Positions 1-20,000 of a DNA stretch of 20,000 nt are shown here, piece after piece. A model generated the notes under the pieces. The model was not told the origin of the DNA. It saw only the letters and a list, made by a program, of their open reading frames with translations, and did no database searches. The stretch lies in assembly GCA_001662655.1 (NCBI GenBank), contig KV460232.1; one strand, 5' to 3'. How positions within the stretch are numbered: position 1 is the first letter of the stretch; each line of letters opens with the position of its first letter. This DNA is from Pseudogymnoascus verrucosus (Eukaryota). The position numbers and the translations under genes are program-made.

Positions 1-419
1 ATCCCGCTGGCGGAGATGTATACCCTGGTCGAGGACACGCGGGTGCGTATGGAGGAGGCGGGGTTGATTGGCGACAGCGACAGCCATCCGGTTAAGGACG
101 TTGTTGGGTATGGACACATGGGTGATTCGAATTTGCACCTTAATGTCTCGGTTAGGAGATACGATAAAGCGGTTGAGAAGGCGCTGGAGCCTTGGGTGTA
201 TGAGTGGATTGAGAAGAGGTCGGGGAGTATTAGTGCAGAGCATGGGTTGGGGCTGGCGAAGAAGAAGTATATTGGGTATAGTAGGAGTGAGACTATGATT
301 GGGCTGATGAAGCAAGTTAAGAATCTGTATGATCCGGTAAGTCTATGTTTTCCCCGAGGCTTGATGAGATTGCTAACGGGGAGTAGAATGGGATTATGAA
401 CCCGTATAAGTATATATAA
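1..419 (+). CDS. DLD2: 3' end of FAD-linked oxidase, D-lactate/D-2-hydroxyglutarate dehydrogenase (DLD2-like); exons <1..336 and 387..419
   Basis: Motifs GYGHMGDSNLHLN and GSISAEHGLG of the FAD-oxidase C-terminal domain. Intron 337..386 (GTAAGT, GCTAAC branch, TAG) restores the typical ending YDP-NGIMNPYKYI* (TAA 417..419). Confidence 0.9.
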
Positions 420-659
420 GCACCTAAGTTCGCCTCGACTCAATGAGAGCACGCGGCTGTATATACCCCTTAGCATCTGTTGTAAAACCAAAAGTATTTG
501 GCTTGCTGATAGTTAGAATATTACTATTAAATCGGTGCAAATTAAGGCGGTGCAAAATCATGAATACAATCTAGATCTAACTCCGATATCCTTCTATCCA
601 ATAGCCAATCTATAACCAACTATTGGTATTTTACCAATCCACATCTATCTCTCCGCCCT

Positions 660-1928
660 CTAAATCTTCGTCTCCCCCCCCAAGAACCCCCCCAAAACAA
701 CAGCCTGCAACAACTGATTCGCAATCGCCGTATGCCCCGGCAACCTCAAATCGCCCTCCTTCCTCCCCTCTCCCGGCGCCTCATCCAACCCACTTGTCCC
801 CGTCTTCAGCGCCACCCTCACCGTCTCGAAATCGAACCACTTCGCCTGCTCCAACTCAGGATCATGCTCGAGATTAATCTCCTCCCCCCCCTTCACCGCC
901 TGCCCAATCGCGCCAATCATCAAGTTCGCCGGATACGGCCACGGCTGTGAACTATGCACCACCACTCTCCCAACCCTCACCCCGCTCTCTTCCCACACCT
1001 CCCTCCGTACCGCCTCCTCCACGCTCTCCGCTGGCTCGCAGAAGCCGGCAAGAGTACTATACCAGTCGGTAGGCCAGCGTTTTTGGCGGCCTAAGAGCAC
1101 TTTCGTGCCGTCGTGGGAGATCACTGCCATGATGACTGTGGGGTCGGTGCGGGGAAAGGAGAGGTTAGAGACTACGCCGCGGGTGGCGCAGGGGCCGCGG
1201 GCGGAGGCGCCAGGGGCGAGGTCGGCGGTGGGACAGACGCGCTTGGTGCCTGCGTGGACGGAAAGGGTGGGCTGGCCGCAGCCGGAGCAGAAGGGGTTGC
1301 GGGCGTTCCAGTCGAGAAGGGCGCGGGCTTGGGCGAAGATGGCGGCTGGGGGGTATTAGTGAGGTCTGTGGGGGATGGGAGAGGGGGTGGTACCATCTGA
1401 AGCGTTGAGTGTCATGGCGCTTCGGCCTTGGAGGAAGATCAAATTCTTCGCCTTTAGGGTTTCAATGACCCCCTTTGCGGCCTCCTCATGCGAGCCCTTC
1501 GGTGTGATATCCACCGCGAAGTAAGGAACTCCCTTATATGCCTTATACTCAAACCCCTCATGTCTCTTATCATTGATACCCAAGAACAAGATCAACGGCG
1601 AAGCCACCTTACTATTATACGCCTCAATCATCTCCGCCTCCGTCTTCGCAAACGGGTTCTCCCCAATCACCGCACTGAGATCAGCATGGCTCACATACGC
1701 GAGGTTCGCGGCATCGCGGGCAGCCGGGGCGAGGTCGTCGACGGCCACAAAGGCGGTGCTGTGGTGCGTGAGGGCGGCGGCCAGGAAGGCGTGGTCGGTG
1801 CGGAGGAAGGAGAGGCGGTTGAGGGGGGAGCCGGAGAAGTAGTTTTGGACCTCGGGCCCGAATTTGCGGGTTAGCATTGAGTCGAGGAGTTCGGGGGCGG
1901 CGAGGGGTAGGTCGGGTTGGGCCGGCAT
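660..1928 (-). CDS. NPY1: NADH pyrophosphatase (Nudix, NPY1/NudC family), ~406 aa; exons 1928..1394 and 1345..660
   Basis: Nudix box GFCEPAESVEEAVRREVWEESGV, SQPWPYPANLM motif, zinc-ribbon-like FCSGCG, FPRTDPTVIMAV, N-terminal NYFSGSPLNRLSFLR. Intron 1393..1346 (GTACCA, CTAAT branch, CAG) joins the two frames. Confidence 0.93.
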
Positions 1929-2626
1929 TGAGGGATTGGGGGGAGGCGATGAGGTCGAGGGGTGGGTTTGAAGGAGATACTGGGGATGGAGATATATATG
2001 AATCTGAACTGGGCAAGGATAGAAGAAGGTTTGCCGATAAGGAGAATAGATAGAGTTGCGTCGGGCCAAGTGTTGGCGAAAGTGTGGGGTAAGGCAGCCC
2101 CGCGTTCTATTTCTTAAGTTGACCCTCGGCGCGATTTGTAATCAAAGACGTGCTGGCAGTGCAGCATGGAATGATAGCAAGGTTTGGGATCTTGAGGGGG
2201 GAAGTGCAATATAGCAAAGCAATCAACCTCGATACATTTTTAAAATAAAGAAATACTCGAATACCTTCTAAGATACGACAAAGGAAACAAATCTGATAGC
2301 TCTTCGAACCCTGGAGGGATTGACAAGCGCTTTCGGGGCGATAAGATCCACTATCAGCATGTGACCTTACTTGTGGAACCATCCTCACTGGGACGAGCGA
2401 GACAGTGTCGGTTACCGCCACATATTTAAGCCTTTCTTTGCCCTTCATTCCATCCTATCAACTCCAATAGCTGGGGAAACACCAGATTTCTCTTGTCCAG
2501 CTTCATTCTGGTTATTTCTATGCGGAGGGAATACGCAGTCCCTACATTACCCCAGCATAGGTGCCACGACAGACCGCACGCGAGACTCGGAAATGCCCAC
2601 GTGACTCATCATCGAACGACAACACC

Positions 2627-3713
2627 ATGGTCCCACCGTCTCAAAGCCTCAATCTAGACGCAGAGGCTATCAGTGGTATCCTGGGGTCGATATCTATTGC
2701 ATGTTGGGTCACGTAAGCCGTATCATCCTCCGTCACCCTCGCAGTCACTAACACATGCCAGTGTTTTCACACCCCAGATCCTCGAGAACTTCCGCCGTGC
2801 AAGCGCCGAGTCTCTATCCCTGGAATTCATAGTCATATGGAGTCTAGGTGACCTCTTCAATGTCTTCGGCGGCATCCTACAAGGCGTTCTGCCTACGATG
2901 CTCATCCTGGCCGTATATTACGTCCTAGCTGACGTCGTCCTCATCTGGCAATGTCTGTACTACCGCGGCGTTCCCTCGCAGGAAGACTCCCCCACGCCGC
3001 CCTCCGAGAGTCAGCCGCAAGCTGAACCCAATGGGCGCCGTCCCAGCGGTCCCTCGCGCCGATCCAGCGTAGTGGACGCAACGCACCTCTCCCCGGCCAC
3101 CCCGTTGGCAGAGCCCACCAAGCCCAGCAGGCGACGCTCGACACCCCTGCAGACAGCCCTGCTGAACCTGCTCGCAGTCTTCATGGTTGCGGGCGCTGGG
3201 GTGTTCGGGTGGTGGGTGAGCACCGGGTCTCAGCGTGGGCCACAGAACCACGACCATGGGCACGGCCCGGCGCCACCGCACCGTGAAAAGGGGGAGCTGC
3301 CTTTGGATCCCCTGGGCCAGGCGTTCGGCTACGGCTGCATGGTGATGTATCTCGGGTCGCGAGTGCCGCAGCTAATACTGAACTGGCGGCGGCAGTCGAC
3401 GGATGGCCTGTCGGGGATGTTCTTCCTGTTTGCGTGTCTGGGAAATGTGACGTATTTCCTGTCGATTTTGGCGTATGAGCCGGCCTGTGTGAGGGAGGAG
3501 GCGGGGTGTGAGGAGGGCGAGGCGAGCAGGGTTTATGGGAGGTATCTGCTGGTTAACCTGTCATGGTTGATAGGGAGCATTGGGTGCTTGGTATTTGATT
3601 TTGGGATCTTATTGCAGTTCATTCGATACAGCGAGGCCAATGAGCTGGTCACTGCGAGTGAGGGGGAGAGGAGGCCGTTACTGGACGGGACTGATCCAAG
3701 GGAAGAGCGATGA
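2627..3713 (+). CDS. PQ-loop repeat vacuolar membrane protein (Ypq/PQLC2-like cationic amino acid transporter), ~345 aa; exons 2627..2712 and 2762..3713
   Basis: Spliced N-terminus EAISGILGSISIACWVTVFTPQILENFRR, second PQ motif SRVPQLILNWRRQSTDGLS, hydrophobic helices, C-terminal ERRPLL dileucine-like signal. Intron 2713..2761 (GTAAGC, ACTAAC, CAG). Confidence 0.9.
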
Positions 3714-5505
3714 TGAGAGATGTGTGTCTCTCCTTGCTGCGGAAACACGGGATATTTCTAGACATCCAACTTCAGAGATGCTGGCTGGATCCACGAGAAC
3801 TGATTTGTCTGATAATGAATATGTATCATATACCGGGCGAGTTATTGCGATGTGTCTGACAATGCATCGGTGATAATCGCCGTCTGACTGACACGGGCGA
3901 TTTCATGCACAGCCCCATGAATCAGGCACCCGGTTTTTTTGAGACCTGCTGGTAGCGATCGAGTCGAGTTACCTCAGCGATAGTTACCTCCCCTCCTTCC
4001 TTGGCTCTCATGTAGTACCTACGACACGGCATCGGACGAGCAGCAGTATCGGGAAACGAGTAAAGTGTTCGGGGTGCGCAGACATGCATAAGCGTCTTGT
4101 GTACTATCCTGTGTACTATGGGTAGAGCAATGTGCGGTCGTGGGGTGTTTCGGGGTCGCCGAAGTCATGTGAGGAACGACGCGAGTTGGTTGGCGGGCGC
4201 GTATCTTGATACGGTTCTAGAATAGAAGGGGATATCATATTGCTGCCTGGAGGGGAAAGTGGGATAATACAAGCCCGATTTTTGCAAAGTATACTTTTTC
4301 GTATTCTTGGCTTGTGAAACAGAAACAGAACCTGTTATTTCTGATGTGGTGGTGGTGGTGGTGATGAACGGAATGAGCCAGAGCAAGAATTCAGGTAATC
4401 GGCTGGTGCTCTCCTATAAGGCGTAAAAGACAGCTATAGTGGTGGACAGAGGGTGGTCAGAGTGCTGGTGGGTGGCAGACTTGGCAGCTAATTTAGGGGA
4501 CGTGGGGAGGGGATGATGGTGCAATTAGAGCCAGTAACAGAGTTATCCCGCCGGCGCATCGGCCGCATGCTGTCTGTACCACCCGTAGATTACCGCCATC
4601 TGGTGTGTATCTAGTGGAATCTAGTGTATCTCTCAAGTACCAAGCCCCGTAAGGCTGAGCAAGCTGGACACCTAAAACTGCTGATCAGCGGTGTTGATCA
4701 GCGTACAAATAGTCGCCATAAAAGCCCTGAGAGGAAAAGAAAAACACGGCGACATTGAAAACCCGCCCCGCCGCCAATAGGACAAGCGGCCCAGATATCT
4801 GGTGTGGTACCTGGAAGCTACAAACTTCAAAAAACTTGGTCCCCATAATGCGGTATAATGCGGTGGCCTTGCGCCCTTCCGCCCCTCTTCCCACCCCTTC
4901 CCAACCCTTCCCAACACCCTTCCAACCCTTCAAAATACTCGTTAAACGGCCATCCCGGCGCTAGAGTCCTGCACCTCTTGCACCTCCTGCACCTCTCCTC
5001 CCCCAAAACCTCACCACCACCCACCTACCCACCTCCCCCAATCTCAAATATGCAGCCCTACGGACCAAAACGGACATTCATAGGTTAGGGATGACGAAGG
5101 GGGGGCCATCTTACCCGTTGCCTCCTAGTCCTAGTCACTGCGAGTTAGGAGTACTTCGGCGGGTTTATATCCTGCCAGTACCTACCTCGGAGCCAGCAGC
5201 AAGCACCCTTGGTCGTTATTTAACATTACAATTACACTACATTACACATCATCCCCGGCATTCCTCACAGAAACCAAATATTTTTTCTCTGATATATCTG
5301 TCGTTGCTGGTCGATCACCGCCAGCAGCTGTCCTAATCTTTATCCCGGACGTCGTATCTCATCATCTTTTCATTCATATTCCTCGTCCTATCTACTACAT
5401 CATCGTTGTTTTGTGTTCACCGTGTGCCCGGTTCCGTGAGATAACTACCCAAGCCCCCCTATCCCCCCGCCGTCCACAACTGGTTGGCAAATACAGGCAT
5501 GTATC

Positions 5506-7891
5506 ATGGTGTATGTCCTCTATCAGCCCTCATTCTTCACAACCAAGCTCTGTATTAACCAGCCCATGCAGTGGCGTTCCCGGCAAATTCAAAGGTTGCA
5601 ACACCTGCCGCACTCGCCGAGTCAAGGTTGGATTCCCTTTTCCAACTTCTGTATCGTCAACAGTATGCTAACAATGCACAGTGTGACAATGCTCGGCCAA
5701 AATGCCAGAAGTGCGTCGCTTCTGGCAGGGAGTGTGGAGGTTATGAGAGGCAGATGATATTCATCGTTGGCACGACCAACGAGCGCGGTCGGTGTATGTT
5801 GAGCTCCCCCGCTATCCCGCTAGCCGTCCTGACTTCTAGAAAGGCAGCAGTCACCCGCACCGCTCTATCCTGACAGCGAAGCAGAAGATGGAGAAAGAGA
5901 AGGAAAGGGAGAGGGAAAGGGAAAGAGAGCTGTCAAGGCCGCAGGTTGATTGGCAGAGCCATAGTGAGGGAGAACATTCTTCAACGCTTCCTCCGACGCC
6001 GACGCCTATCAATGGCACTCCAACCCCTGAGATCTCGTGTGCTTTCTTACACTCGCCGTCTCTATCTCTCAATCCGTCTTTCGAAGCTGAAGGAGAGGCA
6101 TTTTCTTTGCCAGGGCTCACTCACTCTCTGCCCGAGTTTAGTGACCCGGATTCGACTCGCGAGTTCTCTCTGCATGCTTACTCATTCGTACGAGAGCCGG
6201 AGGCAACGCATCGGTCACGCCCAGCCGATGGAGATGTTAATCCACGAGCGAGAAAGAAGGCCCATCTAGAAGTTGACACATACTCGACATCAAGAAATGG
6301 CCACGCCGAGCCTGTAACGACCCTCCTCTTTGTCTATAACGTAAATTAACCACCCAGCTTCTCCTGAACCATCTAACACATCCACAGTCAACAGGAGCAC
6401 CCGCTGGAGAGGCCGGTCCTTTCCACTGCCTCCACGGTGGCACCTCATCCGAGATAAAATCCCGCGACCCCTCATCCTTCCAAAAATTCCCCGCCCACCA
6501 ATTCTTCGCAAACCTCTACAGACCCTTCGCCGTACGTCCCGTCCCGTCCCCATATCCCAGCCCACCACCCCCCCCACTAACCAACCCAGTGCTTCGACGC
6601 AATGTCCCGCCGCCAAGCCACCTTCCTCGCCCGCCCCGAATGGTGCGCCGCGCCCTGGGAAGACATCCCCAAAACCGCCATGGACCGCCTCCTCGACATC
6701 CAAGTCATGCTCCCCGGCATCTTCGAGCGCGCTAGACGCACAGAGGCGTTCCCTCCCTCCGCTTACAGGAGGTTAAAAGCTAAAGACCTGCTTGACAACT
6801 GCACCCGCCTCGATAAGAGTTTCGAGGAGTGGTACAGCGATTTAAAATCCCAGTCCGACGGCCCACTCTACTGGACCGTCGACGCCGCACACTCCTTCAA
6901 CCCGAAACACCGCAACGAGCTCAACGCCCTCTTCCCCACCGCCCTCGAGTTCATCGACATCAACACCGCCCTCCTCCACCTTAACTACTGGGCCGCCCTC
7001 TGCCTCTTCTACCAAACCATCCAGCAAGTCCAGCAGAACTGCATGGAAGTCGCCCCCTCCCCCCCCGCACGCTCATCCTACACCCCTCCCGTGCCCGCAC
7101 ACTCTACCTACTCCCCGCCCAGCACGCGTGCGTTCGCGGAGGCGGGGGGGTACATGGGGTCTAGCCCTTCGTACTCTACGCCCTCCCCGCACGCATCCGT
7201 TTCCCCGGCGGCGGATTTGTATAACCCCGCGCCGTATGAACAGAGTACCTATGCTGCTCAACAGGCCTACCCGACTTACCAGCGAAACGGCGCGTATCAG
7301 GCAGCGCAGACATACACGACTACTTCATCACTCTCATCCACCTACCCCGCGACCGCGCACCCGAATCTGGGGTATACACTCCCCACGCCAACACCGCTTT
7401 ACCCAACGAATCCCTACGACCTCTCTGAGCCCTTCCTCTTCACCACCACCCCGCCTGACGTGTATCAAAACCCGTCCTCCCTCGCGTCGCTTAACCCGTC
7501 GGTGGCGGCGGGTTCATTCCCTTTCTACCTCGCCCCTCACTCCCTGTCCTCCCCGCAACAACACCCACCACACCAGACACACCAACGCGTGCCCTCACCC
7601 ACCCCACCACCACTAGACCAGAAATTCTCGGCCCAAGCAACAGGGGAGCTAGCGAGGAGGATTGGGATGGGAATTCTTTATGTGCTACGCAGGGGGGGCG
7701 CGGGGGAAGGGGTGGCCTGGCCGCTGAGGTGTGTGGGGGAGGTGTTTGGGGGGGAGGGGTGGGTTGAGGGGGTGCGGTGGTGTGGGGAGGTTGGGAGGGT
7801 TGTTAGGGGGATGGGGTTGGAGAGGGGGGTGGGTGGGTTGGAGAGGGAGAGGTGGAGGGTTGTTGGGGGGGAGGAGGAGGGGGAGGAGTAG
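5506..7891 (+). CDS. Zn(II)2Cys6 fungal transcription factor, ~704 aa; exons 5506..5510, 5572..5626, 5682..5793, 5844..6340, 6388..6531, 6590..7891
   Basis: Spliced N-terminus MVGVPGKFKGCNTCRTRRVKCDNARPKCQKCVASGRECGGY is a canonical six-Cys binuclear cluster. Five GT-AG introns with branch sites keep the frame. Downstream FLARPEW..PW segment resembles fungal TF middle regions; P/S/Y-rich C-terminal part. Confidence 0.85.
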
Positions 7892-10037
7892 TGTGGGGTG
7901 TGGGGGAGGGGTAGGTGGGGGTTGAGGGAAAGAATGGGGGTGTACGATATATCATAATTTTGGTGGGAGTTTAGGGGGGTGGAGAGGGGAATGGAGAGGG
8001 GGGTCTAAGCATAGCTTGGTCGCGTTGAGCGCGAATGCAAAAATGAAAATGAAATCATCTGATATAATACAACAATCACTCTACCGTTTCGACTCTACTA
8101 ATTATGCCAAAATTATACGTGATAGCAGATCAACAAGTCAAGAAAAATCCATTCAAATTCAATAGAAGGTCAATTATAATCCCCTCCCTTTTATATACGC
8201 CTTATTTTATATAACTAGGAAAAAATTTAATAATTTAATAGGTTTATTTAGTTCCGTATCCCTTCCATAGGAAATTAGAATAAGAATAAGGATAGGCCAC
8301 CCCTCGTACGAAAGGAGCTGCGTATACAATCAACCTATGGTTCACCCATTGTTTATGTGTGCCTAATATCAAATATAACGTTATAACTACGTTCATCGTT
8401 CTATCCCATCCTACCTCTCAATCCAGGAAGAATTTAAATAATCATCATCACTTCCACAACAGCATACACCACAACCTACACCACATCCCACATCCCACCC
8501 CCCCCATTACCCCCATTACTCAGCAACTCACCTCCCAATCAATCCACTCACCCCCCTCTTCCCCCCCATAAATGGCAGAAAAGATCCACACTCCCTCAAA
8601 AACCAGTCGCGTACATCTCCGTATCACGTGCACCCAAAACGCGAAATCACATGACACCCACCCTGTCTCCTACCTAATCCAGCCTAGTCCCTCTCCCTCC
8701 GTTCCTTCCACATCCCCTAGCTCTACAGTACCTAGCTCCCTCCCCAATTTCGCGGAAGTGCAAAACAAAATGCCAAGACCGAGCGACATACAAGCCCGCA
8801 GCACGCCCCCCCCTTGTCTAACCGACCGGTAGTACTGGAGGTATCCAGGCATGTGTCTTGTCACTTTACTGACTGGACTGGGACTCTGGTACTCTGGACT
8901 GATCCATCAGTGGAGATGTGGCGGCGGCGGGTACGGTGAGGTGAGGTGAGGGTAAGGTAAGGTCGTATGCGGGGAAGTTCAAGTCAAACTCGAGGTCGGA
9001 GTCACAAGAGATGGGGAAGTTTTAGTTGGGAACGGACTGCTGTACTGCCGTAGCGACGCTGGGGATTGGTCTGGGTCTGGACTGCGGGCGAGGGGGGGGG
9101 GTGGAAATGGCCCGATTGAAATGTTTTTGGGGGGGAGGGATTGGGTTAGCGTGGAAGGGGTGGAAGTGGTTAGTAAGGGAAAGGGTGTGTTTGGATGGTT
9201 GTTTGTTTGGTACGGTAGGGGAAGGGGAGGGGGAGGGGATGAAAACGAATGATGGGGGAGGGCACGTGATGGGGTGTGTTTGTTGGTGGTTGTCACAAGA
9301 GCAGGAAGGTAGAGTATGGAGATGGGGAAGGGGAGGGAGAGGTGTGATTTGTATTTTTGGGTGTTCTCGTGTTGTTGTGTTGTGACTGTGGGATGCGATA
9401 TGGTGTATATACATAGATACGATACTGAAGGTGATCTAAGCTGAGCTGGCGGTATCGTATCGTATCGTATCTTACGATGCTACTCTATCTCACGATCCTC
9501 CTCACGATCCTCCTCAATGCCGAACTCCATATCGTCGCCGGTATCACCACTATCACAAGCCTCCTACCACCTCGTACATCCCTCCCTCCCTCGCGTGGTA
9601 GTATACCAACACCACAACGCGTGAGTAGTCTTCCAACCAACACCACACAGCCAACACCACCACACCCCCCAGCACGAGCACGACCGGCAATCACCCCCTC
9701 CGTGCCGACACAACGCCCACTCCTTCCCCCCGACACGCCCACTCCTCACTCCCGAACCCACCACAGCAAGCCACAGCCTCAACGTTACTACCGACCCCCT
9801 ACTAGCGTGTCCTGCACCCGGCACGCCACACGTCAGCCCGTATCCTACGTTACGGAAGGTTATTTTGGGGTGTAGGGGGGGGGTGGGTGTGTGTACTGGG
9901 TACTTGGAGATGGGATCTGCAACGTGATGGGATGGGATGCAACGAAGGCGCGGTTAGGGGAGGGGGTTAGGCGGTAGTGGTCGGTTGGTTGGTTCGGCGG
10001 TTCGGTTTAGCGGAGAGGCGTGGGGACGTGGTGGATG

Positions 10038-10190
10038 GGGAGATAGTGAGATAGGGAGATAGGGTGCTGGTAGGAGATGGGATGGGAGATGGGATGGGAG
10101 ATAGATGGGAGATAGATGGGAGATAGATGGGATTGTGGATGAAGGGGATAGTTGAAGCTGGGATGGTAGTGATGGGATGGGATGGGATGG
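10038..10190. repeat. Low-complexity tandem repeats (GGGAGATAGAT, GGGAT units)
   Basis: Directly visible imperfect tandem units in the intergenic spacer. Confidence 0.7.
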
Positions 10191-10579
10191 TTGATGCTGG
10201 GTGGGTACGTTGCAATTGTGTACCGGAGAAGATTGCCGGCAGGGAGATGGAGTCGGAACACCGATTCAAGTACAGTGGCTGCATGTACAGCAGTTATTAC
10301 AGTTTGCTTGCTGTGCTGCCATGTACACCTATCGCACACTTCCTGCACATCTGCCATATCTGCCACATCTGCCACAGTTACATAAAGTATGCTCGCTACC
10401 GCACAATTCCATCTCCACCTCCTCTATCAGAAGACAAGGTACACAGTACAACCCACCACCAGACTCCCACCACCACCACAACACACCCGAATGCAACCAG
10501 CAACTCACAAGTGCCCTACCAAGCAACAAGCCTCGCCGCATCCAGCTAATCAACAAACGTCGCTTAGTCGAATCTCGAG

Positions 10580-10609
10580 GCTAGGGGAGCTAGGGGCTAG
10601 GGGCTAGGG
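10580..10609. repeat. Short tandem repeat (GGGGCTA)n
   Basis: gctaggggagctaggggctaggggctaggg seen directly. Confidence 0.6.
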
Positions 10610-10767
10610 TCGGTCGTGTGCATTCGTGCTACCTTCCTTCCGCTCTCACGCTGCCCACCACTGAGTGTCTGTATCCCTTTCCGCGCTTCATCATCCCCAC
10701 TGACTAGATGAAACGGGGTACTTCTGTCATCACCCACTTCGCTACTGGATGCTAAGTACTGGAGTAG

Positions 10768-10807
10768 GGGGATAACTGGGGATAACTGAGGATTACTGGG
10801 GATAACA
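10768..10807. repeat. 10-bp tandem repeat GGGGATAACT, ~4 copies
   Basis: ggggataact ggggataact gaggattact ggggataaca. Confidence 0.7.
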
Positions 10808-11401
10808 AGGGGTCGGCTAGCAACTTAGGCTTAGGTAGATGCTACCGAGGCGTTATCAAGGTGTTCTCTTCTTCTACTACTCTACTACTGAGGGAACAGA
10901 GATTGTCTCTCACGTGCCCCTCTCCACACCCTTACCACACCCTCCACAATCCTTCTCTCTCTCCCTCCCCCACAAAGCTTCGTTTGGGTACATACGGCCG
11001 AGGGAGGGTATGTATGTACTGTAGTATGTACTTGTGGTGCTGTGGTACATTGCCAGATGTGCTATGTTACTGTACTGTATACTGTATTATTACTCTGCAG
11101 TATGCGCCTGTGAGTCTGTCTCTCCCTTTCCTTTCTCTCTTCACAATTCCTAAGTCACAGTCTCTTCATTCTTCCCTTTCTCCCTTCTTCCTCCCCTCCC
11201 CTCATCTCCACCTCCTCTTTCTCCTCTTTCTCTCCACAAACTTCACCTCCACATCACGTCCCTCCGTCTCTCCGTCCTCCTCCCTCCACTACAACCTTCA
11301 AACCAAACCAACCCCATGCATAAACGCCTCAATACGCCCATACCCGCACCCATACCCATCCCCCATCCACATCCGCCACTTGCCCCAGAATACAACACAA
11401 G

Positions 11402-11552
11402 CTACTACTACTACTACACGCCAATCCCGCCCGTTGATGTACGCCGATACCTCCACACTACTACTTCCACTACTACTTTCACTACTCCCTTCTCACACTA
11501 CTACTCTACTCCTCTACTACCCTACTACTCTACTGACTAACTCTACTACTAT
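11402..11552. repeat. Imperfect (CTA)n microsatellite tract
   Basis: Repeated ctactacta runs upstream of the MFS gene. Confidence 0.65.
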
Positions 11553-11926
11553 ACATAGAATAGTACGGGTAGTACTACCGTATCCTCGCTCTTATTCCAT
11601 CTACCCTCGCCCCTCGCGAACCACTGATCCACCTTCATCCACTCTGTCCACCTCCACACCCCCCCTACGCCCCCAATCCACCTCTCCACAACATCACCCT
11701 AACTCGCCGTAAACTGCTCTAGGTAAGGTAAGACACCCTGCAGACGTGCCATCCCAGATAACACCCCTGCTTCCACACCCCCAAGCTTATCTCCTCCTTC
11801 CCGCCTTCACTTTTCTATATCATCCCTACCTCCCCCTTACCACCGACGCCCTTCTCTCTCCAAACCGACCTGAGTCGCCAACTCCACCCCCACCAACCTT
11901 GGATCGACAATTCTCCTTCCAAAGCC

Positions 11927-13739
11927 ATGGCCGACTCAAAGGAAACCTACGAAGCTGCCACCGACGCGAAGGTCGCCGACGCCACACCCACCTACGAAGA
12001 GCACGCTGTCGTCGACAATGACGGCCTTGGCGCGCTGCCCGGGGATCGCCCAGCAGGATGGATGTACCGCGAGCGCAAGATTGGCCCGGTCGTCGTGACG
12101 TGGTACGCGTCGCCGATGTTCCAGCTCTTGATGGTCTCGTTCGTCTGCTTCACGTGCCCTGGTATGTTCAACGCATTGACGGGTCTGGGAGGTGGTGGAC
12201 GCGACGATCATGAATTGGCTTCGAATATGGTAATTCTTCCACTTTTCCTACTCGCGTCATGGTAGTAGCAATTGCTAGAGATCCCCCCGTGGGTGCGGGG
12301 GATTGCAGGGGATATGCGACAAGGGAGGATGGGAGATGCGAAATAAATAAATCACTTTACTTTACTATACCTATACTAACCACGTGCGCAGAACGTTGCT
12401 CTCTACAGTACCTTCGCCGTCGTGGGTTTCTTCGCCGGCTCCTTCGTCAACCGTCTCGGCATCAAGGCCACCCTCTCCTTCGGCGGCATCGGCTACTGCA
12501 TCTACGCCGTCGCGCTCCTCGCCTCTCTCCACGCCGGACCCAAGATCAACGGGTTCTGCTACTTCGCGGGCGCGCTCCTCGGTGTCTGCGCCGGCCTCCT
12601 CTGGACCGCCCAGGGCACAATCATGATGTCGTACCCCCTCGAGTCCGAGAAGGGCCGCGCCTTCGCCTGGTTCTGGACCATCTTCAACCTCGGCGGCGTC
12701 GTCGGGTCGCTCATCCCCCTCGGCCTCAACGTCAACAACCCCCACGGCGTCGGCGTCCAGGACGGAACCTACATCGCCTTCATCGTGCTGATGTTCTGCG
12801 GTGCCGTCCTCGCCCTCTTCCTCTGCAACGCCAACAATGTCATCCGCTCCGACGGCTCCAAGGTCGTGCTGATGAAGAACCCCTCGTGGAGCTCCGAGTT
12901 CGTCGGCCTCTACAAGACCATCATCTCAGACCCGTACATCCTCCTCCTCTTCCCCATGTTCTGGTCCTCGAACTGGTTCACCACCTACCAGACCAACTCC
13001 GTCAACGGCGCCTTCTTCAACATCCGCACACGCTCCCTCAATTCCCTGCTCTATTGGTTCTCCCAGATGATCGGCGCTATCGTCTTCGGTAACTGCCTCG
13101 ACATCGAGCGCTTCCAGCGCACGACTCGCGCGAAGGCTTCGCTTGTTGTGCTCTTCGCTCTTACTTTCGCTATTTGGGGAGGCGGGTACAAGTGGCAGAC
13201 TGGATTCACTCGTGAGAACCTCCCGGCTACGGGTGACTGGACCGATAAGGGATACCTCGGCCCTATGTTCTTGTACATGTTCTACGGCTTCTACGATGCC
13301 GCTTGGCAATGCTGCGTTTACTGGTACGTCCTCCTAATTCCCATCTCCCCCTACTCCCTCTTTCCCCTCCCCCTTCCCCCACCATCCACCCACCCACCCG
13401 CACCACCGCAAAACAACCCACAAGCTAACCCCCACCCCCAGGTACATGGGCGCCCTCACCAACAACGGCCGCAAGATGGCCAACTACGTCGGTTTCTACA
13501 AGGGCATCCAATCTGCCGGCGCCGCGGTAATGTGGTCCCTCGACGCGCACAACATGTCCTTCATGGACGAGCTGATCTCCAACTGGGTCCTCCTCGCCGG
13601 GTCGCTGCTCGTCGCTGCGCCGGTTATCTTTATGAGGATTACGGATCATGTGACGGTGGAGGAGGACCTGAAGTTTAGCGATGGGACGTTGGCGGATGTG
13701 TTGCCGGAGGGGCATGCGGAGAAGAGTGTTGGTGCTTAG
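11927..13739 (+). CDS. UNC-93-like (DUF895) MFS membrane transporter, ~510 aa; exons 11927..12229, 12392..13323, 13442..13739
   Basis: Family-typical motifs VCFTCPGMFNALTGLGGGG, ALYSTFAVVGFFAG, LLWTAQGTIMMSYP, FNLGGVVG, FNIRTRSLN, GFYKGIQSAGAA. Introns 12230..12391 and 13324..13441 with CTAAC branch sites restore one frame. Confidence 0.9.
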
Positions 13740-14099
13740 ATGGGGAGGGTTGTTGTTAGGGAGTAATTTTTTAAGAGGGGGGGAGGTGGTGGTGGTTTAA
13801 TTTGTGGGGTGGGTATATCCAGGGGGGTTGTTAGGTAGCGGGTGGCATATTGATGTGTTTACTCACTCATGAGTGGTGCTGGTTGTGATTAGAGTGTGTT
13901 TGCATGCTTTCTCCCCTTGTGAATGTTCGCTATGTTAGATACACGTCTTTTTAACGATGTCGACTCTACTTTACCGACGCGCCACAGAAAGTCTAAACGG
14001 CCCCAGGACAGCCTACAGTTACTAGGCCCACGTATATGTTGGAAGGCTGACCTAAAGTAAGAACTAGGCTCTAGCCTAGATAGTTGGAGTCGTACACGA

Positions 14100-14333
14100 T
14101 ACGGAAATTGCGGTGCAATCGCTGACTACTGCGGCGCTGGGAACTGCTATTCTGGCGCTTGCGACACTGATATTGGCGGACCAAGCATTAATGGAGAATG
14201 TGGGCCTTTGTTCGCTGGAAACAAAACATGCACCGGTACCCAATTTGGTACATGTTGCAGCAACGATGGATACTGTGGAAGCACTGTGGACTATTGCGGA
14301 TCTAAGAGCTGCTACTCGGGTGCCTGCACGTAG
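14100..14333 (+). pseudogene. 5'-truncated chitin-binding (hevein/CBM18) repeat fragment, 77 codons
   Basis: A frame absent from the ORF track reads YGNCGAIADYCGAGNCYSGACDTDIGGPSINGECGPLFAGNKTCTGTQFGTCCSNDGYCGSTVDYCGSKSCYSGACT*, i.e. 1.5 hevein domains (CCSxxGYCG). No in-frame ATG between an upstream TAA at 14058 and the domain. Confidence 0.8.
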
Positions 14334-14685
14334 TATGTCTCATAAAATTGAGCTTCACTAGCTTCAAAGGTGATCCGTTTGGATTACGTTTTACAAAACT
14401 CTAGTTGGAATCATATGGCTAGAGTGGGTGTTGGGAGTCTATTGATAAGTGACGTAGATGGCAATTAGACAGCAATATCATTAATAGAGACATGGAATAG
14501 TTTCTGAATGCCATCTCATTTATCCCGTAAGCTACGGCCCCCCTATCCAGTCTCTGGGTTTTCACGCATCACAGAGTAGCCATCTAGCCCTGCTCTGAAT
14601 ACTGATTTCTGTCTCGGTATATCAATCGTGTCATAACCGTCGGTCTATTTTGCAAACTAGGCCTCTAACAGAGCAGACAGCTAAC

Positions 14686-16177
14686 CTACCATTTCATATG
14701 AAGCTGATACATGTAAGACCCGTCCTCCGTATCCGCCTCTTTAAACTTCTCAATTCCACCTACCACACCCTCTTCATCTACTTCCCATAATCCAGCTTCC
14801 ACAATGGCCTGCCATTGACCCAAAACATCTGCTAACTGCGGCTCATGCAATGGGATAAAATGATTATACCCCGTTTGGTATAATTCATTCCTCCGGCCGC
14901 TAGGCCTTACCTTCGCGCTCTCAAGATTTTCGCCGATAAGTGTGTCGTCCGTACGCCGCGCAAAGCCGCGGGCGCCAATATTGAATGGCAGGATGAGTCT
15001 GCAGCCGTCTTCAAAGACGTGGTCGCCATCTCTGTTGACATAGGTTGTCCACAGGCCGTACGGTAGATTGGAGAGATCTTGCAAAGGGTAGTGCTCAAAA
15101 ATAGGCGAAGTTGACTTGGTGCCTGTGACAAACAAAGGGATTGGGAGAACGGGGTTTGGAAATAATTGAGGAATGTCAACATTCTGTAGTGGGAGTGGCG
15201 AGAAGTCGGGTTCTGTAGGAAGGCGCAGACCTGGCGCTATGTATTTTATATTTGCTTTTGGTCGCCGAACCGATGTGAGGAACTCTCGGACGAAGCCCTG
15301 TTTTAATCCAGCCCTGTCCAAGACTTCCTTGGAGATAAGGCCCATTTCATTTTGGGAGCGTGGCGCATCGAATTTGGCAGTCGCAAGAGCGACAAGCTTT
15401 GCTTGGTCTTCTAGGTTGTCCTTCGGTTGAAGTGACGGGTTTTCGACCAAACTCTCAATCTTGAGAATCAAATTATCAAAATAACTGACAGCAGCTTCGA
15501 GATCCATTTGGCTGTATGGCTGAAGCTCCCATGGGTCGGCTTCTCCTGGTCCTCTAACGGGCGAGGGCCTCGCAACGATCTTTCCAGAGTCAATCATACC
15601 TAGCCAAGCAGTAAAAACGACCTCGAGAGGGTCCCAAACTGTTCGACCATTGTTTGTAATAGAATAGTTTGAGACATCGGCGTGAAAAATTGCCCGGGAC
15701 ATCTCTTGGTCGAAGCTAAATGGGTATTGGCTCAGCCATCATTCGAACAAATCTATGAGATATTTACTTCAAGCCATCTGGGTCACTACCCATATTCGGA
15801 TCGGCTAGCGGGTACAGACACATTGTCCCTTCATCCTCATGACAAGTTTCAAACAGATTTTCTGGGCAAGAAATGCCACGGACATAGTAGAAGAAGCTCT
15901 GGTTAGGAGCCTCTTCAAATGCTGCTTGAAGAAATTGCTTTAGAGTTGGTGACAGGCGAGCTGACCATTCCGCCTCGAGGGCTGGATCCGTGATATGTGT
16001 TTGCCACCAGGTTTCCCTGGGCATCTCCGTCTCTGGTTTGCCTCCTGCAGCCCACCCAAGCCTCAGAATTAGATTATGGAGAGCAGCGCACCGCTCCCAG
16101 TCCATGCCATTCACTTCACGGACTGGGGTTTCCGCCGTGACTCTCCACGTGGATTCATCGTCGATAGAGAAAACCAT
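14686..16177 (-). CDS. Fungal hypothetical protein, ~479 aa; exons 16177..15768 and 15715..14686
   Basis: Two long ORFs joined in frame by intron 15767..15716 (GTAAAT, GCTGAG branch-like, TAG), giving SDPDGLNFDQEMSRAIF. Globular, non-repetitive composition; function not recognised. Confidence 0.8.
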
Positions 16178-16697
16178 GACGGAATCCTTAGGGGTTAGGG
16201 TTCAAATATCGGAGTGGTGATGGTAACACGAAAACCATTGTTGTGTGCACTGAATTCGGCCCTCGGCCACTCGGCGGAGTTGTTGATCCGGCACCAACCC
16301 TGACACAATTCCCCCCACGTCAAAGAGGAGGCTGATTGATCCCGAATCTCCGATAAATAATAAATCACGAAAGTGAAGTTACTCGTGAACGCACGACACG
16401 ACATACACCAAAGCCCTTACTCGTCATCCCAGCTCTGCATCTTCCTCGGCGACTCCCAGCTTGACGATATTGAAGCGCGATTGCTCCGACAGCCCCGCGA
16501 AGATAGCACACGAAGCTACCCCTCCTTCGAACTTCACCCCGTTGAGCTTTTTGTACGGCATAGTAGAGCTCATTCTGGATTTGCATGGCCGCAATTAGTA
16601 TTTGCCCCTTTTTATTATCTCTTCGCCGGTTAGTAGTCTTCGGTACTTATTATGAAGCTGATGCATCGATCGTGTTTTGATTATCTTGAAATCAATG

Positions 16698-16770
16698 ATC
16701 CTCCACCCAATTATCCTCCACCCAATTATCCTCCACCTAATTATCCTCACCCAATTATCCTCACTTAATA
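16698..16770. repeat. Tandem repeat ATCCTCCACCCAATT (14-15 bp), ~5 copies
   Basis: Directly visible ~130 bp beyond the captain stop codon. Confidence 0.85.
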
Positions 16771-16902
16771 ATGATCCCTAATCCTCTATCGTTATCAGCA
16801 AATTACGCCTCACAACATCATCTGCCACACTTGGCAACCACAACCACAATTTAAGCCACAGTTTGAATTGCAATTTGAGGACAGTAGTTTATATTTTTCA
16901 TC

Positions 16903-19564
16903 TTATGACATATGATTCTCGTCCTCATTCTTTACCTTCTTGCTCACATAGTTTAAAGCCTCGCCCTTCGTGTCTTGCGCCTTTCGCTCATCATCTTCGC
17001 TCTTTCTTTTCCTAGACACATAGTTTGAACGTGGTTCCTTAATACAATGCACGTCTTCAAAATGAGCTTTAAAATCTAAAAGAGACTTAAGATGCGCGTG
17101 GCACATAGGGTGCGGACATTCCGATTCTGCATAAGTAGTAAGGTGCGTGTTAATATGATTGAGTAGCGTGGACTTCGTCATCCATTACGGCATCCTCTAG
17201 GATGGCAAGAGGTCCTCATTACCTAGGCAGAAAGGACAGTAGCCTGCTACTACTAGTGTGTATCGAAAGGATAGAAGCCCGCATCTTAATTCTAGTTTTT
17301 CAAGATGAGATTTGCAATGGTTGTCCCATCCATCTTCGCTACAATTCCACTCGTAGCATGCATAGCAATATTCCGTAAATGGCAGTTTGCAGTTGCGAAG
17401 CTAGCGAGAGTATAAACTAGGCTGTTAGCTTAGCGTATCTTATAGCTCATGTTAGCGATAGGCATAGATGTGTTTTAATTGCATTGCAATAGGCAATCTA
17501 GATTAATTAGCGTTAAAATGCTCTTTGCAAATTCTATTCTTACTTAATCATAGCTATGAAACAGCCCTCGTGAGGACACATTCTACTAACGGGATGTTCG
17601 TTTAGCTGGTATGCCACCTAGTTATCATTAACGCATAGGCTATAGATGTCTTGTAAGGCCGCTTAACTTTAGTTAGTTTCAGTGAGTATTGCATTCGTAA
17701 TACGATCGCATGTAGGCATGAATTAACGAGTTAATTGAAAGATGCCTAGCTGTTGTAATTTTGCTAGAATGATTTTATCCTCATCTTCTAGTAGTTACAC
17801 TTGCTGTAAAGCCTCCTCATTATAGCTTATAGAAAACCATTCCTCTCTATAGGACTTTTTAGCCGATTAGAGGAGGCTTCCATTCATACTGTATAATTTC
17901 TACTACTCTTTAAACCTAGCTAGGTGTTTAGTAGGCTTATTATCTATGTCTCTCGTAGCCTATGCTATAAGCATGTTTAAGTGTTAAACATTAGGTCTTT
18001 AAAAGAACTTAGCCTTCTCTTTTGCTAGAAGGTCATTAGGAGCATTGCTATCACGTCGATAATCTATACTTTGCAACGTCTCGATGTTATCAGTAGGCGC
18101 ATTAACGCTACTGTACATTAAGAATCTATATCCCTTAGCAATCTTTAACTCGTAGGACTTGTTGTATATTCCTGTGTTTGCGTGATCTAAGAAACGTCTA
18201 TGCACTTCTAGGTCTTAGAAGAATTAGAGGGAACTCTTCTAAAACAGGATTAGACTTACCTTTAATCTTATTTGCAACACTAGCACGAATGGCATATATC
18301 TTTAGAGGATCTCTATAGCTAATTTCATAGCTGAGATGCACTACCTAGTTCTATAGTGTAGCGTAAGTAAGTGCTCTAATTTTGTCTACGCCCTTTAGAG
18401 ATGCCATCTGTAGTATAGGAAGTTCGTAGGCCTCCTCTTTCCATTTAAGTTCCTATGAATCTCTACCTTCTAGCAGACGAGCCTTCATAAGGGCATCTAA
18501 TGTATCATACTATTTTACAGCATTGTTAGCAATAGCGAGGGCAAAAAAGAACATTAACCCGTTGTACATTAAGCGATGCTTGGACTTAAGAATAATATAA
18601 AGGCTGTTATCTATTAGCTTTTATTCTAGATATATTAATAGACTTTGCGTACTTTTCGTTCTCATCACTACGTTTCCCTTTTATATACCTTTGAATTATT
18701 TCAAGTTTAAAAGTAAACTCGCTACTAGGTAGCCGTAATAGATGAATATGGCAGTCCTAGTTAGTTAATTAGGCAGCATTATATGCAAGGATTTTGTGTA
18801 CCTTATATGCAAGCGCCTAATTCGTTCCTCTATAGGAGCTTAATTCTATAATGGCACTAGCTCTAGCCCCACAGCTAGCAAATAATATGAGCATAAACGA
18901 CAGCTAGACTCTATAGCGTTCATAGAGGTATTCATAATCGTGAAAGCACTAGAGATGTGTTATCAATCTTGTTAGATCTTTAAAAGTCACTAAGTATTTG
19001 TCCCGTTTCTTCATGCTTAAATCAAGTTTCTGCCGTAAAGAAACTCCAATAAACTGTTGCGTATGTTAAGTGAAGTTTTACTAAGTAGAGGGAGCTTTGG
19101 GATCTTACAGCAGCGACATCATTAACTAGTTGCCAGTCTAACTTAGAACTCGTAATGCAATTTTGATAGCCTACAAATCTATACTAGACAGTAGCTATAC
19201 TGTGGACTATTAGAAGCTCACCAATGCGTCCATAGTATAATGAGGCGTAATATTCAATAAAGTCTTTCAATATAACGGGTTCAAGTTGTAGCGATGCATC
19301 CATTTTTAGCCCTTTTACAGCAAGGAACCTAATATCTTTATAAACCTAAATATCTTTATGAAACAACCTCTTAGAGTTAGGAGCTTATACGTACTCGTGC
19401 CAAATCTCTCCTACATGCTCGTGTAAATCTTTGGCGGCGCTAGCGAGAAGGGATTGCTCAGTCTAGCTCAATTAGTTTTGTCGATCAAGTGTACTCTGCG
19501 CAGAATAGCCTCGACTCTGTGCTAGAGCAAGCTGATCTTCAGAAGTAAGGGTTTTCCGTCCCAT
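16903..19564 (-). pseudogene. RIP-inactivated DUF3435 tyrosine recombinase (Starship captain) with C-terminal Cys/His zinc-binding region
   Basis: Manual spliced translation with introns 19394..19329, 19108..19054, 18801..18757, 18652..18604, 18259..18214 and probably another near 17543..17440. It gives LKDFIEYYA..GRI, LFASCGARASAIIE (catalytic R, ~18865), IYAIR (HxxR position, 18296..18285), RRFLDHANTGIYNKSY (H 18184, Y 18154) and C-terminal EYCYACYEW..HCKSHL..GYCPFCLG..CPHPMC. Many in-frame TAG/TAA codons fall at expected Gln/Trp positions. Confidence 0.85.
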
Positions 19565-19665
19565 TGTAGCAGATATTGAAAAATTATAAAAAGTTGCAGA
19601 CAGAGGACCTTGAAATGTGAAGGCGGGAGACTGGCCCTTTATACCATTTTCTGGGCTCAACTATA

Positions 19666-19756
19666 CTCACCTTCCTCACCTATCTAGCTCACCCTACTCA
19701 CCTTGCTCACCCTGCTCACCTTGCTCACCATGCTCACCAACTCACCTAGCTCACCT
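19666..19756. repeat. ~9-bp tandem repeat CTCACCNNN, 10 copies of CTCACC
   Basis: ctcaccttg/ctcaccctg/ctcaccatg units between the captain ATG and the 5S junction. Confidence 0.85.
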
Positions 19757-19808
19757 GCGTGCATCCAATGTCGCGGTGCAACGCGTTGTCAAAAACTGAC
19801 CCACTTTC

Positions 19809-19835
19809 GGGTGGTCGAGGTGGTCGGGGTGGTCG
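19809..19835. repeat. 9-bp tandem repeat RGGTGGTCG x3
   Basis: gggtggtcg aggtggtcg gggtggtcg seen directly. Confidence 0.75.
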
Positions 19836-19916
19836 CGATCACAAAATAAGGGGCAAGGGCGGCGAGGCTCACCCACTAGGCCGGATGGCACCGATTTAAG
19901 TATTATCTAGATATTT

Positions 19917-19979
19917 GCTTGAGATCGGTGGATTAGTAGTTGGGTGGGTGACCACCAGCGAATACCCACTGTTGTATGT
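19917..19979 (+). rRNA. 3' half (~63 nt) of a 5S rRNA gene; 5' ~55 nt missing
   Basis: GCTTGAGATCGGTGGATTAGTAGTTGGGTGGGTGACCACCAGCGAATACCCACTGTTGTATGT matches the ascomycete 5S 3' half (loop E TTAGTA/GAA, helix GTTGGGTGG-GTGA-CCACCAGC, end TGTTGTATGT). Upstream bases lack ACATACGACCATA and CCCGTCCGCTC. Confidence 0.92.
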
Positions 19980-19997
19980 TTTTTGCCATTTTTTTTT
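19979..19997 (+). terminator. RNA polymerase III poly-T terminator of the 5S gene
   Basis: T6 run at 19979..19984 and T9 run at 19989..19997 immediately after the 5S end. Confidence 0.8.
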
Positions 19998-20000
19998 GAT

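What the first reader, a model, noticed from the sequence alone, without database searches (positions are those of the whole stretch)
16903..19997. Hidden Starship: captain tyrosine recombinase next to a 5S rRNA gene cut in half
Seen: a spliced, stop-riddled minus-strand gene with R / (H>Y)xxR / H / Y tyrosine-recombinase motifs starts at 19564. About 350 bp upstream the sequence switches abruptly into the 3' 63 nt of 5S rRNA, which keeps its terminator. Known: Starships carry a DUF3435 captain as the first gene at one end, and some families (e.g. Galactica) insert into 5S rDNA. Inference: this is the captain-side junction of such an element, antisense to the 5S gene and possibly an unannotated lineage.
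Basis: partly seen in the sequence, partly recalled or inferred. Interest (0 to 1): 0.85.

Follow-up and report, generated by a model that had tools for sequence, protein, structure and literature searches.

The report
Dead captain recombinase beside half 5S gene
A mutation-riddled copy of the recombinase gene that drives Starship-type fungal transposons sits exactly where a 5S ribosomal RNA gene has been cut in two, which is a known habit of these elements, and no cargo can be shown here.

Summary
Window 19918-19979 is 62/62 identical to nt 58-119 of intact 5S genes found elsewhere, followed by T-runs. The 5' 57 nt are nowhere in the window. 353 bp away, on the minus strand (19564-16903), lies a five-segment DUF3435 gene. 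It has 31 stop codons in its aligned parts and a strong C>T/G>A bias (RIP-like). It is 65-82% identical in protein to Pseudogymnoascus relatives, and the model of an intact relative has a Cre-like fold. Two public metagenome contigs (L023, L032) show the same layout: a captain homologue, about 370-390 bp of homologous terminal sequence, and a break at the same 5S position, next to other 5S sequence variants. This supports site-specific insertion into 5S rDNA, which is already published for Starships (23% of curated sites). A giant element is not shown. The part shared with other copies is only about 3.2 kb (16693-19917). The genes to the left look like housekeeping genes and are syntenic in three other genomes. 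The other end, direct repeats and an empty site could not be found. Verdict: a RIP-killed captain-end relic and a new member of a known kind. The scan has noted similar 5S-splitting captain elements in other genomes.

The parts
19918..19979 (+). 3' part of a 5S rRNA gene (nt 58-119 of about 119), not mutated
   Evidence: 62/62 identical to intact 5S of locus L042. Intact 5S genes score 53.8-82.5 bits with RF00001 in 16 of the 20 loci tested. The window's fragment scores 26.2 bits, below the gathering score of 38.
19980..19997 (+). T-runs behind the 5S end (Pol III terminator type): T5 at 19980-19984 and T9 at 19989-19997
   Evidence: Sequence. Intact 5S loci have similar T-rich tails.
19917..19918 (.). 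Junction between the element end and 5S nt 58
   Evidence: Homology to intact 5S starts at 19918. L023 and L032 break at the same position. Contigs of 4 runs break at 19915-19918 (table 7).
19565..19917 (-). 353-bp terminal/upstream region of the element, between the captain ATG and the junction
   Evidence: Homologous to the corresponding 371 bp of L032 and 390 bp of L023. Other contigs of the source and related genomes match parts of it, with indels (table 5).
19857..19893 (+). Best-conserved block near the end (GGCGGCGAGGCTCACCC..GGCACCG), with a CTCACC exactly 50 nt from the junction in all 3 loci
   Evidence: Alignment. CTCACC distances to the junction.
19664..19756 (+). Array of 9-bp units (GCTCACCTT): 10 CTCACC copies, all in one orientation
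   Evidence: TRF finds 7.9 copies and the repeat finder family D1 covers it. The window holds 24 CTCACC against 12.2 expected, and 0 of 200 shuffles reach 24. L032 has 11 and L023 has 8 copies in the same position.
19810..19835 (+). GGTGGTCGA x2.9 short array
   Evidence: TRF. Present in L032 and degenerate in L023.
16903..19564 (-). RIP-inactivated captain-type tyrosine recombinase pseudogene. tblastn segments: 19564-19094, 19053-18655, 18611-18261, 18214-17543, 17496-16903. The last segment encodes a Cys/His-rich C-terminal region.
   Evidence: Pfam DUF3435. tblastn with P0004-6, P0071 and P0068. 31 stops inside the aligned segments, 21 of the 27 that face a residue facing Q, R or W. C>T/G>A bias of 206 against 43 relative to L032.
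16693..16762 (+). 15-bp array (CAATTATCCTCCACC x4.7) behind the captain stop; left limit of what other copies share
   Evidence: TRF. Read laying joints 16741/16745/16746 to 16881/16885 in X1, X20 and X4, and summed depth rising from 164 to 643 in the bin 16676-17342 of X1.

Best explanation
This is the captain-side end of a Starship-type mobile element that integrated site-specifically into a 5S rRNA gene between nt 57 and 58. The captain gene reads away from the remaining 3' part of the 5S. In life, the DUF3435 tyrosine recombinase would recognise sequences in its own roughly 350-bp terminal region and the 5S target, and would cut and rejoin DNA through the usual R-K-H-R-H-Y active site. That step is inferred from the family. 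This copy is dead. Because the family is multi-copy, repeat-induced point mutation hit it, turning Q, R and W codons into stops and the catalytic His of HxxR into Tyr. Only about 3.2 kb (captain plus termini) is recognisable. The distal part of the element and the 5' half of the 5S are missing from the window, most likely through later deletion or rearrangement. Shown: the identity of the gene, the 5S break point, the RIP-type decay, and recurrence of the same junction at other loci. Inferred: the integration mechanism, the independence of the insertions, and the loss of the distal part.
For: DUF3435 scores above the Pfam cut-off even on the decayed frame. The closest proteins are 68-74% identical PF11917 proteins of Pseudogymnoascus spp.. 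A full-length relative, P0071, scores DUF3435 at E 5.6e-41. Its AlphaFold model (pLDDT mostly above 90 over residues 70-750) matches Cre recombinase at TM 0.70-0.73, E 4.5e-6, and also matches XerH, IntI, Tn1549 Int and lambda Int. R195, K241 and Y385 are nearly invariant in 48 aligned relatives. The 5S match is 62/62 and starts abruptly at 19918. Of 44 public loci holding the same 42-nt 5S stretch, 2 (L023, L032) carry a captain homologue on the opposite strand, 371 and 390 bp from the same break point, with homologous terminal sequence. None of the other 42 shows this junction; 4 of them are cut inside the 5S by a contig end, and L014 and L031 have a changed 5' tip. The 5S bases next to the junction differ among the three loci (CTTGAG, CTCAAG, CTCCAG). 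The first two occur in that exact form in intact genes. Contigs of four runs break at 19915-19918, and the loose-end consensus of X4 and X20 resembles the L023-type element end. RIP signal: TpA/ApT is 1.34-1.42 over 17.4-19.2 kb. 206 of 286 differences from L032 are C>T or G>A in the window, concentrated at CpA (33%) and CpG (27%) against CpT 6% and CpC 4%. Literature: 23% of curated Starship sites lie in 5S rDNA, with at least 5 distinct internal target sites (PMC11162782, passages and section 23). Voyager inserts 20 bp from the 5S start (PMC9156397, passages).
Against: No 5' half of the 5S, no second element end, no direct repeat and no TIR pair could be found. No Starship-typical accessory family (DUF3723, NLR, patatin-like, ferric reductase; list recalled) is among the Pfam hits of 100 ORFs to the left. 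The hits are FAD-oxidase_C, NUDIX, PQ-loop, Zn_clus, MFS_1 and Chitin_bind_1. Region 1-9966 is present at about 97-99.9% identity in three other runs, so it looks like core genome. L023 and L032 share 22 of 24 nt behind the 5S end, so those two may not be independent insertions. Only 20 nt of right flank exist in the window, so no empty site can be sought. Family placement among the 11 Starship families was not possible.
Confidence: 0.8

Rival explanations
1. The family is not giant at all. It is a compact (about 3.2 kb), captain-only, Crypton-sized element that targets 5S rDNA, and the window holds almost all of it. The CTCACC-type arrays on both sides of the gene (16693-16762 and 19664-19756) would be recombinase-binding arm sites that come together in a circular intermediate.
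For: Homology with other copies in the source and related genomes runs only from about 16693 to the 5S junction (joints and depth bins). RIP-type decay is confined to the same stretch. The sequence to the left is ordinary and syntenic. Direct CTCACC-containing arrays flank the gene, and the right-hand array is conserved in L032 and L023.
Against: No 5S nt 1-57 lies at or near 16693, where a simple compact insertion would put it. Starships of one family also share only the captain and ends while their cargo differs, so short shared homology does not discriminate. One 29-kb contig of the source run starts at such a junction, but its content could not be read (table 8). Binding of the arrays is pure inference.
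Confidence: 0.25
2. The 62-nt 5S piece belongs to the element (a carried copy of the target's 3' part, as in tRNA-targeting bacterial integrative elements), so 19917/19918 is not a host-element junction.
For: The 5S piece is unmutated next to a heavily mutated gene. L023 and L032 share 22 of 24 nt beyond the 5S end. A joint 19983 to 19864 ('goes back 120') occurs in X1 and X20.
Against: The 5S bases directly at the junction differ among the three loci, and two of the three forms match intact 5S genes exactly. The window's flank is no more like that of L032 than flanks of unrelated 5S genes are (score 10 against 11-12). Many contigs diverge directly behind 19983/19984. 5S genes are too short to be RIP targets (recalled), which explains the clean sequence.
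Confidence: 0.07
3. Chance neighbourhood: a 5'-truncated 5S pseudogene that merely lies beside a solo, decayed DUF3435 gene.
For: Solo captains and 5S pseudogenes both exist in fungi (recalled).
Against: The same break point with homologous adjoining sequence recurs in L023 and L032 and in contigs of four runs.
Confidence: 0.03

Closest known systems
5S-rDNA-targeting Starships: Voyager (Macrophomina phaseolina), Osiris (Enterprise-family, Aspergillus fumigatus), Arwing-family elements
   Same: A DUF3435 tyrosine-recombinase 'captain' is the first gene at one end and reads inward. Insertion is at an internal 5S site that fragments the gene. The families are multi-copy and prone to RIP (PMC9156397, PMC11162782, PMC12153272; passages read).
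   Different: The break lies at nt 57/58, not 20 bp from the 5S start as in Voyager. It does not lie at the CCCG/GGGC core named for Arwing. The five mapped target sites are in a figure I could not see. No cargo, no second end and no direct repeat are shown. The copy is dead. The family assignment is unknown.
Cryptons (small eukaryotic DNA transposons encoding a tyrosine recombinase; recalled, not read here)
   Same: The size class of the recognisable unit (about 3 kb) and a single intron-bearing tyrosine recombinase gene.
   Different: The protein is a DUF3435 captain type with a conserved Cys/His-rich C-terminal region. It shows strict 5S targeting. Membership was not tested.
Bacterial integrative elements that target tRNA genes (analogy used in PMC9156397)
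   Same: A tyrosine recombinase integrating into a conserved, multi-copy small-RNA gene.
   Different: Those elements carry the gene's 3' part and restore the gene. Here the evidence favours simple disruption.

Membership tests
Tyrosine recombinase superfamily | Catalytic residues R...K...HxxR...H/W...Y | tested here: met
   R195, K241 and Y385 are nearly invariant, and the consensus reads TGARxG / KGxR / HxxRR / GH..Y, in 48 relatives. The window keeps the R, K, xxR, H and Y positions but has H>Y in HxxR and 31 stops, so it is a dead member.
Tyrosine recombinase superfamily | Cre / lambda-Int type catalytic fold | tested here: met
   Tested on the intact relative P0071 (44-66% identical to the window's segments). 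Foldseek finds Cre at E 4.5e-6, TM 0.70-0.73 normalised to the target, plus XerH, IntI, Tn1549 Int and lambda Int. A sequence search of the PDB found nothing relevant.
DUF3435 (PF11917), the captain domain | Score above Pfam's gathering cut-off | tested here: met
   28.6 bits against 25.8 on the stop-riddled frame. Relatives score 141.3 and 105.8 bits.
Starship element | Captain is the first gene at one end and reads inward | tested here: met
   The ATG at 19564 is 353 bp from the junction at 19917/19918 and the gene reads leftward. L032 and L023 have the same layout.
Starship element | Large size with mobilised cargo (published range about 15-700 kb) | tested here: inconclusive
   Shared homology is about 3.2 kb. 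The genes to the left are ordinary and syntenic in X2, X20 and X4. The far end may have been lost.
Starship element | Direct repeats (and short TIRs) at both ends | not testable with these tools
   No second end lies in the window and no 5S nt 1-57 was found.
Starship element | Empty site in related genomes | not testable with these tools
   Only 20 nt of right flank exist. Intact 5S genes with an identical 3' part were seen only at other loci.
Named Starship family (Enterprise, Arwing, Voyager and others) | Placement in the captain phylogeny / starfish HMMs | not testable with these tools
   No reference captains or starfish models are held. 1853 unnamed relatives were found.
5S rRNA gene (RF00001) | Full-length match at the gathering score | tested here: not met
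   26.2 bits against 38. Only nt 58-119 are present, so this is a fragment, not a gene.

The most novel reading that the evidence does not exclude
The family is a minimal, captain-only Starship relative of about 3.2 kb. It homes to nt 57/58 of 5S genes and uses the conserved arrays of CTCACC units on both arms as recombinase-binding sites. That would make it a bridge between Cryptons and giant Starships, and a natural 'core unit' from which cargo carriers grow.
Probability: 0.2. Interest if true: 0.6.

Novelty: new member of a known kind. Interest (0 to 1): 0.3.

Why it matters
The result adds a Leotiomycete (Pseudogymnoascus-like) captain lineage with a precisely mapped 5S break point (nt 57/58) and a conserved terminal region containing short repeat arrays. 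Two searches of the paper library turned up nothing on Starships in this genus: 'Starship' plus 'Pseudogymnoascus' gave 1 paper, a DNA-repair review seen only in the listing. The practical value is modest. It gives a handle (junction sequence plus captain) for finding full copies and testing whether small captain-only forms exist. It does not change what is known about Starships.

Tried and rejected
1. The whole genome of the window is not held, and the records behind L023 and L032 are not held. The contigs could therefore not be extended.

2. 'The 57 nt before the junction are a diverged 5S 5' half', an idea prompted by Rfam's forced full-length alignment. Global alignment against three 5S variants gave z from -1.6 to +1.1 and p of 0.17 or more, with 2000 shuffles each. 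Rejected.

3. The window's right flank was compared with the L023/L032 flank. The score of 10 is no better than for unrelated 5S flanks at 11-12, so no shared flank can be claimed. With 20 nt this is weak either way.

4. A search for the 5S 5' half in the window found only chance hits of 8-12 nt.

5. Inverted and direct repeat searches over 13500-20000 gave only short pairs of the kind the tool's own description says are often chance, and no TIR candidates.

6. Read laying joint 16731 to 19682 in X4 (side 36) and the 'opposite strands' joint 16750 to 19992. Both ends lie in short-repeat arrays, so I treat these as alignment ambiguity and not as a captain-less allele.

7. Parts of the window without cover in X4 (14.1-16.9 kb) and X2 (10.0-13.3 kb) carry no inference.

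8. The ORF at 14686-15702 has conserved single-gene relatives across Pezizomycotina and no Pfam family, so it is not Starship-typical.

9. A sequence search of the PDB with P0071 gave nothing meaningful.

11. The sR28 hit at 5313-5369 (19.3 bits against 39) is taken as chance.

12. No tRNA genes were found in the window.

Full report
**What is there.** The last 3.3 kb of the window differ from the rest. GC falls from about 0.46-0.65 to 0.34-0.42 between 16.5 and 19.5 kb.

At the far right, 19918-19979 is 62/62 identical to the 3' part of intact 5S genes. These were obtained by scanning public metagenome contigs for a 42-nt stretch of it. Counted from the A of ACATACGACC, the retained part is nt 58-119. 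It is followed by a T5 and a T9 run.

Rfam alone scores the region below threshold (26.2 bits against a gathering score of 38, E 0.12), as a half gene should. Intact genes reach 53.8-82.5 bits in 16 of the 20 loci I gave to Rfam, out of the 44 fetched. The four that fail are the two junction loci and two loci cut by a contig end.

The missing 57 nt occur nowhere in the window. The 57 nt that stand in their place are not a diverged 5S half: z runs from -1.6 to +1.1 against shuffles.

**The gene.** An ATG on the minus strand at 19564, 353 bp from the junction, opens a reading that needs five frame changes and is full of stops.
- One frame still scores DUF3435 above Pfam's cut-off (E 9.2e-7, 28.6 bits against 25.8). 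The other two frames give nothing.
- The nearest proteins are PF11917 proteins of Pseudogymnoascus spp., 68-74% identical; 3 hits among 1614 candidates.
- A 1047-residue relative from Venustampulla (P0071, DUF3435 E 5.6e-41) and a 193-residue protein on a contig of L032's length, 4767 nt (P0068, 82% identical) cover the gene end to end. tblastn tiles 19564-19094, 19053-18655, 18611-18261, 18214-17543 and 17496-16903, with gaps of about 40-46 bp between the segments where the frame changes.
- The last segment encodes a Cys/His-rich region. It is part of many relatives' proteins (matches reaching query residues about 740-776).
- Inside the aligned segments there are 31 stop codons. Of the 27 that face a residue, 21 face Q, R or W.
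- The catalytic His of HxxR is Tyr here. The R, K, second R, H and Y positions remain.

In 48 aligned relatives R195, K241 and Y385 are nearly invariant. The AlphaFold model of P0071 (mean pLDDT 78.5, mostly above 90 over residues 70-750) matches Cre at TM 0.70-0.73, and also XerH, IntI, Tn1549 Int and lambda Int. The protein family is large: 1853 representatives at E up to 0.001.

**Decay.** Against the less decayed copy in L032 the window is 88.7% identical. Of 286 differences, 206 are C>T or G>A in the window and 43 run the other way. They sit at CpA (33% of sites) and CpG (27%), far more than at CpT (6%) or CpC (4%). TpA/ApT is 1.34-1.42 over 17.4-19.2 kb. This is RIP-type mutation, which implies that the sequence was repeated in the genome.

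The laid contigs agree. Other contigs of the source run and of three related runs match 16881-17171, 17034-17239, 19411-19621 and 19773-19946 at 85-90%.

L032 itself has few stops, but it has Cys for the second catalytic Arg and Gln at the His position. L023 has several stops.

**Is the junction meaningful?** Of the 44 loci that hold the same 5S stretch, two (L023 and L032, from one assembly) have a captain homologue on the opposite strand, 371 and 390 bp from the same break point. The sequence between is homologous to window 19565-19917. None of the other 42 shows this junction. Four of them are cut inside the 5S by a contig end, and L014 and L031 have a changed 5' tip.

The 5S bases right at the junction differ among the three loci: CTTGAG, CTCAAG and CTCCAG. 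The first two occur exactly so in intact genes, where they co-vary with the 5' strand of the helix. This speaks for separate insertions into different 5S copies.

In the laid runs, several contigs per genome break at 19915-19918. The loose-end consensus in X4 and X20 resembles the L023-type end. A contig of X2 bridges the left limit of the repeat (15406-16974), so that related genome shares this very insertion.

One caveat: L023 and L032 share 22 of 24 nt behind the 5S. Those two may therefore descend from one event or from paralogous 5S loci.

**What is not there.** The part shared with other copies runs only from a 15-bp array at 16693-16762 to the junction, about 3.2 kb.

To the left, 100 ORFs gave FAD-oxidase_C, NUDIX with its zinc ribbon, PQ-loop, Zn_clus, MFS_1/UNC-93 and Chitin_bind_1, and no family typical of Starship accessories. 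The ORF next to the element has ordinary relatives across Pezizomycotina. Positions 1-9966 are present at about 97-99.9% in three other runs.

No second end, direct repeat, TIR or empty site could be found. The right flank is 20 nt long, and no genome or extended contig could be fetched. Cargo is therefore not shown.

The remnant may be what is left after loss of the distal part, which I think most likely. Alternatively, the family may be compact.

**Terminal region.** All three loci carry an array of 8-11 CTCACC units of period 9-10, at 165-285 nt from the junction. All three also carry one CTCACC exactly 50 nt from it, inside the best-conserved block. The window has 24 CTCACC against 12.2 expected. 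A role as recombinase or promoter sites is inference only.

**Comparison with print.** Starships inserting into 5S rDNA are established.
- Voyager inserts 20 bp from the 5S start (PMC9156397, passages).
- Osiris of A. fumigatus targets 5S, while the Galactica-family Lamia targets A(N)TAGT (PMC12153272, passages).
- The figure and tables that map the five sites were not visible to me, so I cannot say whether nt 57/58 is one of them.
- A search for Starship plus Pseudogymnoascus found one review, seen in the listing only.

Earlier notes of this scan describe small 5S-splitting captain elements in other genomes. I did not test them.

**Verdict.** This is a RIP-killed captain-end relic of a 5S-targeting Starship-type element, a new member of a known kind and of modest interest.

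Noticed in passing
L036:1442-4052: An intact 5S gene (75.8 bits) is followed, after about 290 nt, by the 3' end of a different, apparently open captain-like gene on the opposite strand (TGCRPAEL motif; weak matches to P0076 and to the Cys/His region of P0071/P0068). Homology with the flanks of other 5S loci stops about 80 nt behind the 5S. This may be another element family that lands beside 5S genes rather than inside them.
   Followed up: partly
L014:298-416 and L031:2433-2551: These 5S genes have their first ~8 nt replaced (..TTTTCAGGCA|ACGACCATAG instead of ..CACATACGACCATAG). They score lower (62.3 bits) and have different upstream sequence. This may be a junction at the very 5' tip of the gene.
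   Followed up: no
L023 and L032, the 24-31 nt behind the 5S end: The two junction loci of one assembly share 22 of 24 nt of flank, although their captains and element ends are quite diverged. Both contigs stop there. Unexplained.
   Followed up: partly
window 19864-19983: Contigs of X1 and X20 join 19983 back to 19864 ('goes back 120'). This suggests loci where the unit 'element end plus 5S 3' part' is repeated in tandem. The short sides are 41 and 22 nt. Unexplained.
   Followed up: no
window 1-7751: A 19.5-kb contig of run X4 differs by only 3 letters in 7751, while the next pieces (7918-14096) differ by about 2%. X4 shows nothing at 85% or more for about 14.1-16.9 kb. Identity between these genomes is mosaic.
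   Followed up: no
window 8262-8326 (within the AT-rich stretch 8001-8500): A 65-nt stretch is matched by one very high-depth contig in X1, X2 and X4 (6470 against 164 in X1). That contig's flanking letters look like organellar large-subunit rRNA to me (recalled). It may be a small mitochondrial-derived fragment.
   Followed up: no
P0070 and P0074 (gene models of other Pseudogymnoascus spp.): The last about 40-100 residues of the captain (..SNCVSRKRKSEDDE..YVSKKAK..) are fused to unrelated proteins in these models. Truncated 3' fragments of the family therefore lie beside other genes elsewhere.
   Followed up: no
window 17400-19980 against L032: The C>T bias is as strong at CpG (27%) as at CpA (33%). 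This differs from the CpA-dominated pattern I recall for Neurospora RIP.
   Followed up: partly
window 14061-14330 (+): A small Cys-rich ORF with a chitin-binding type 1 domain (E 1.2e-8), close to where cover by X4 stops.
   Followed up: no
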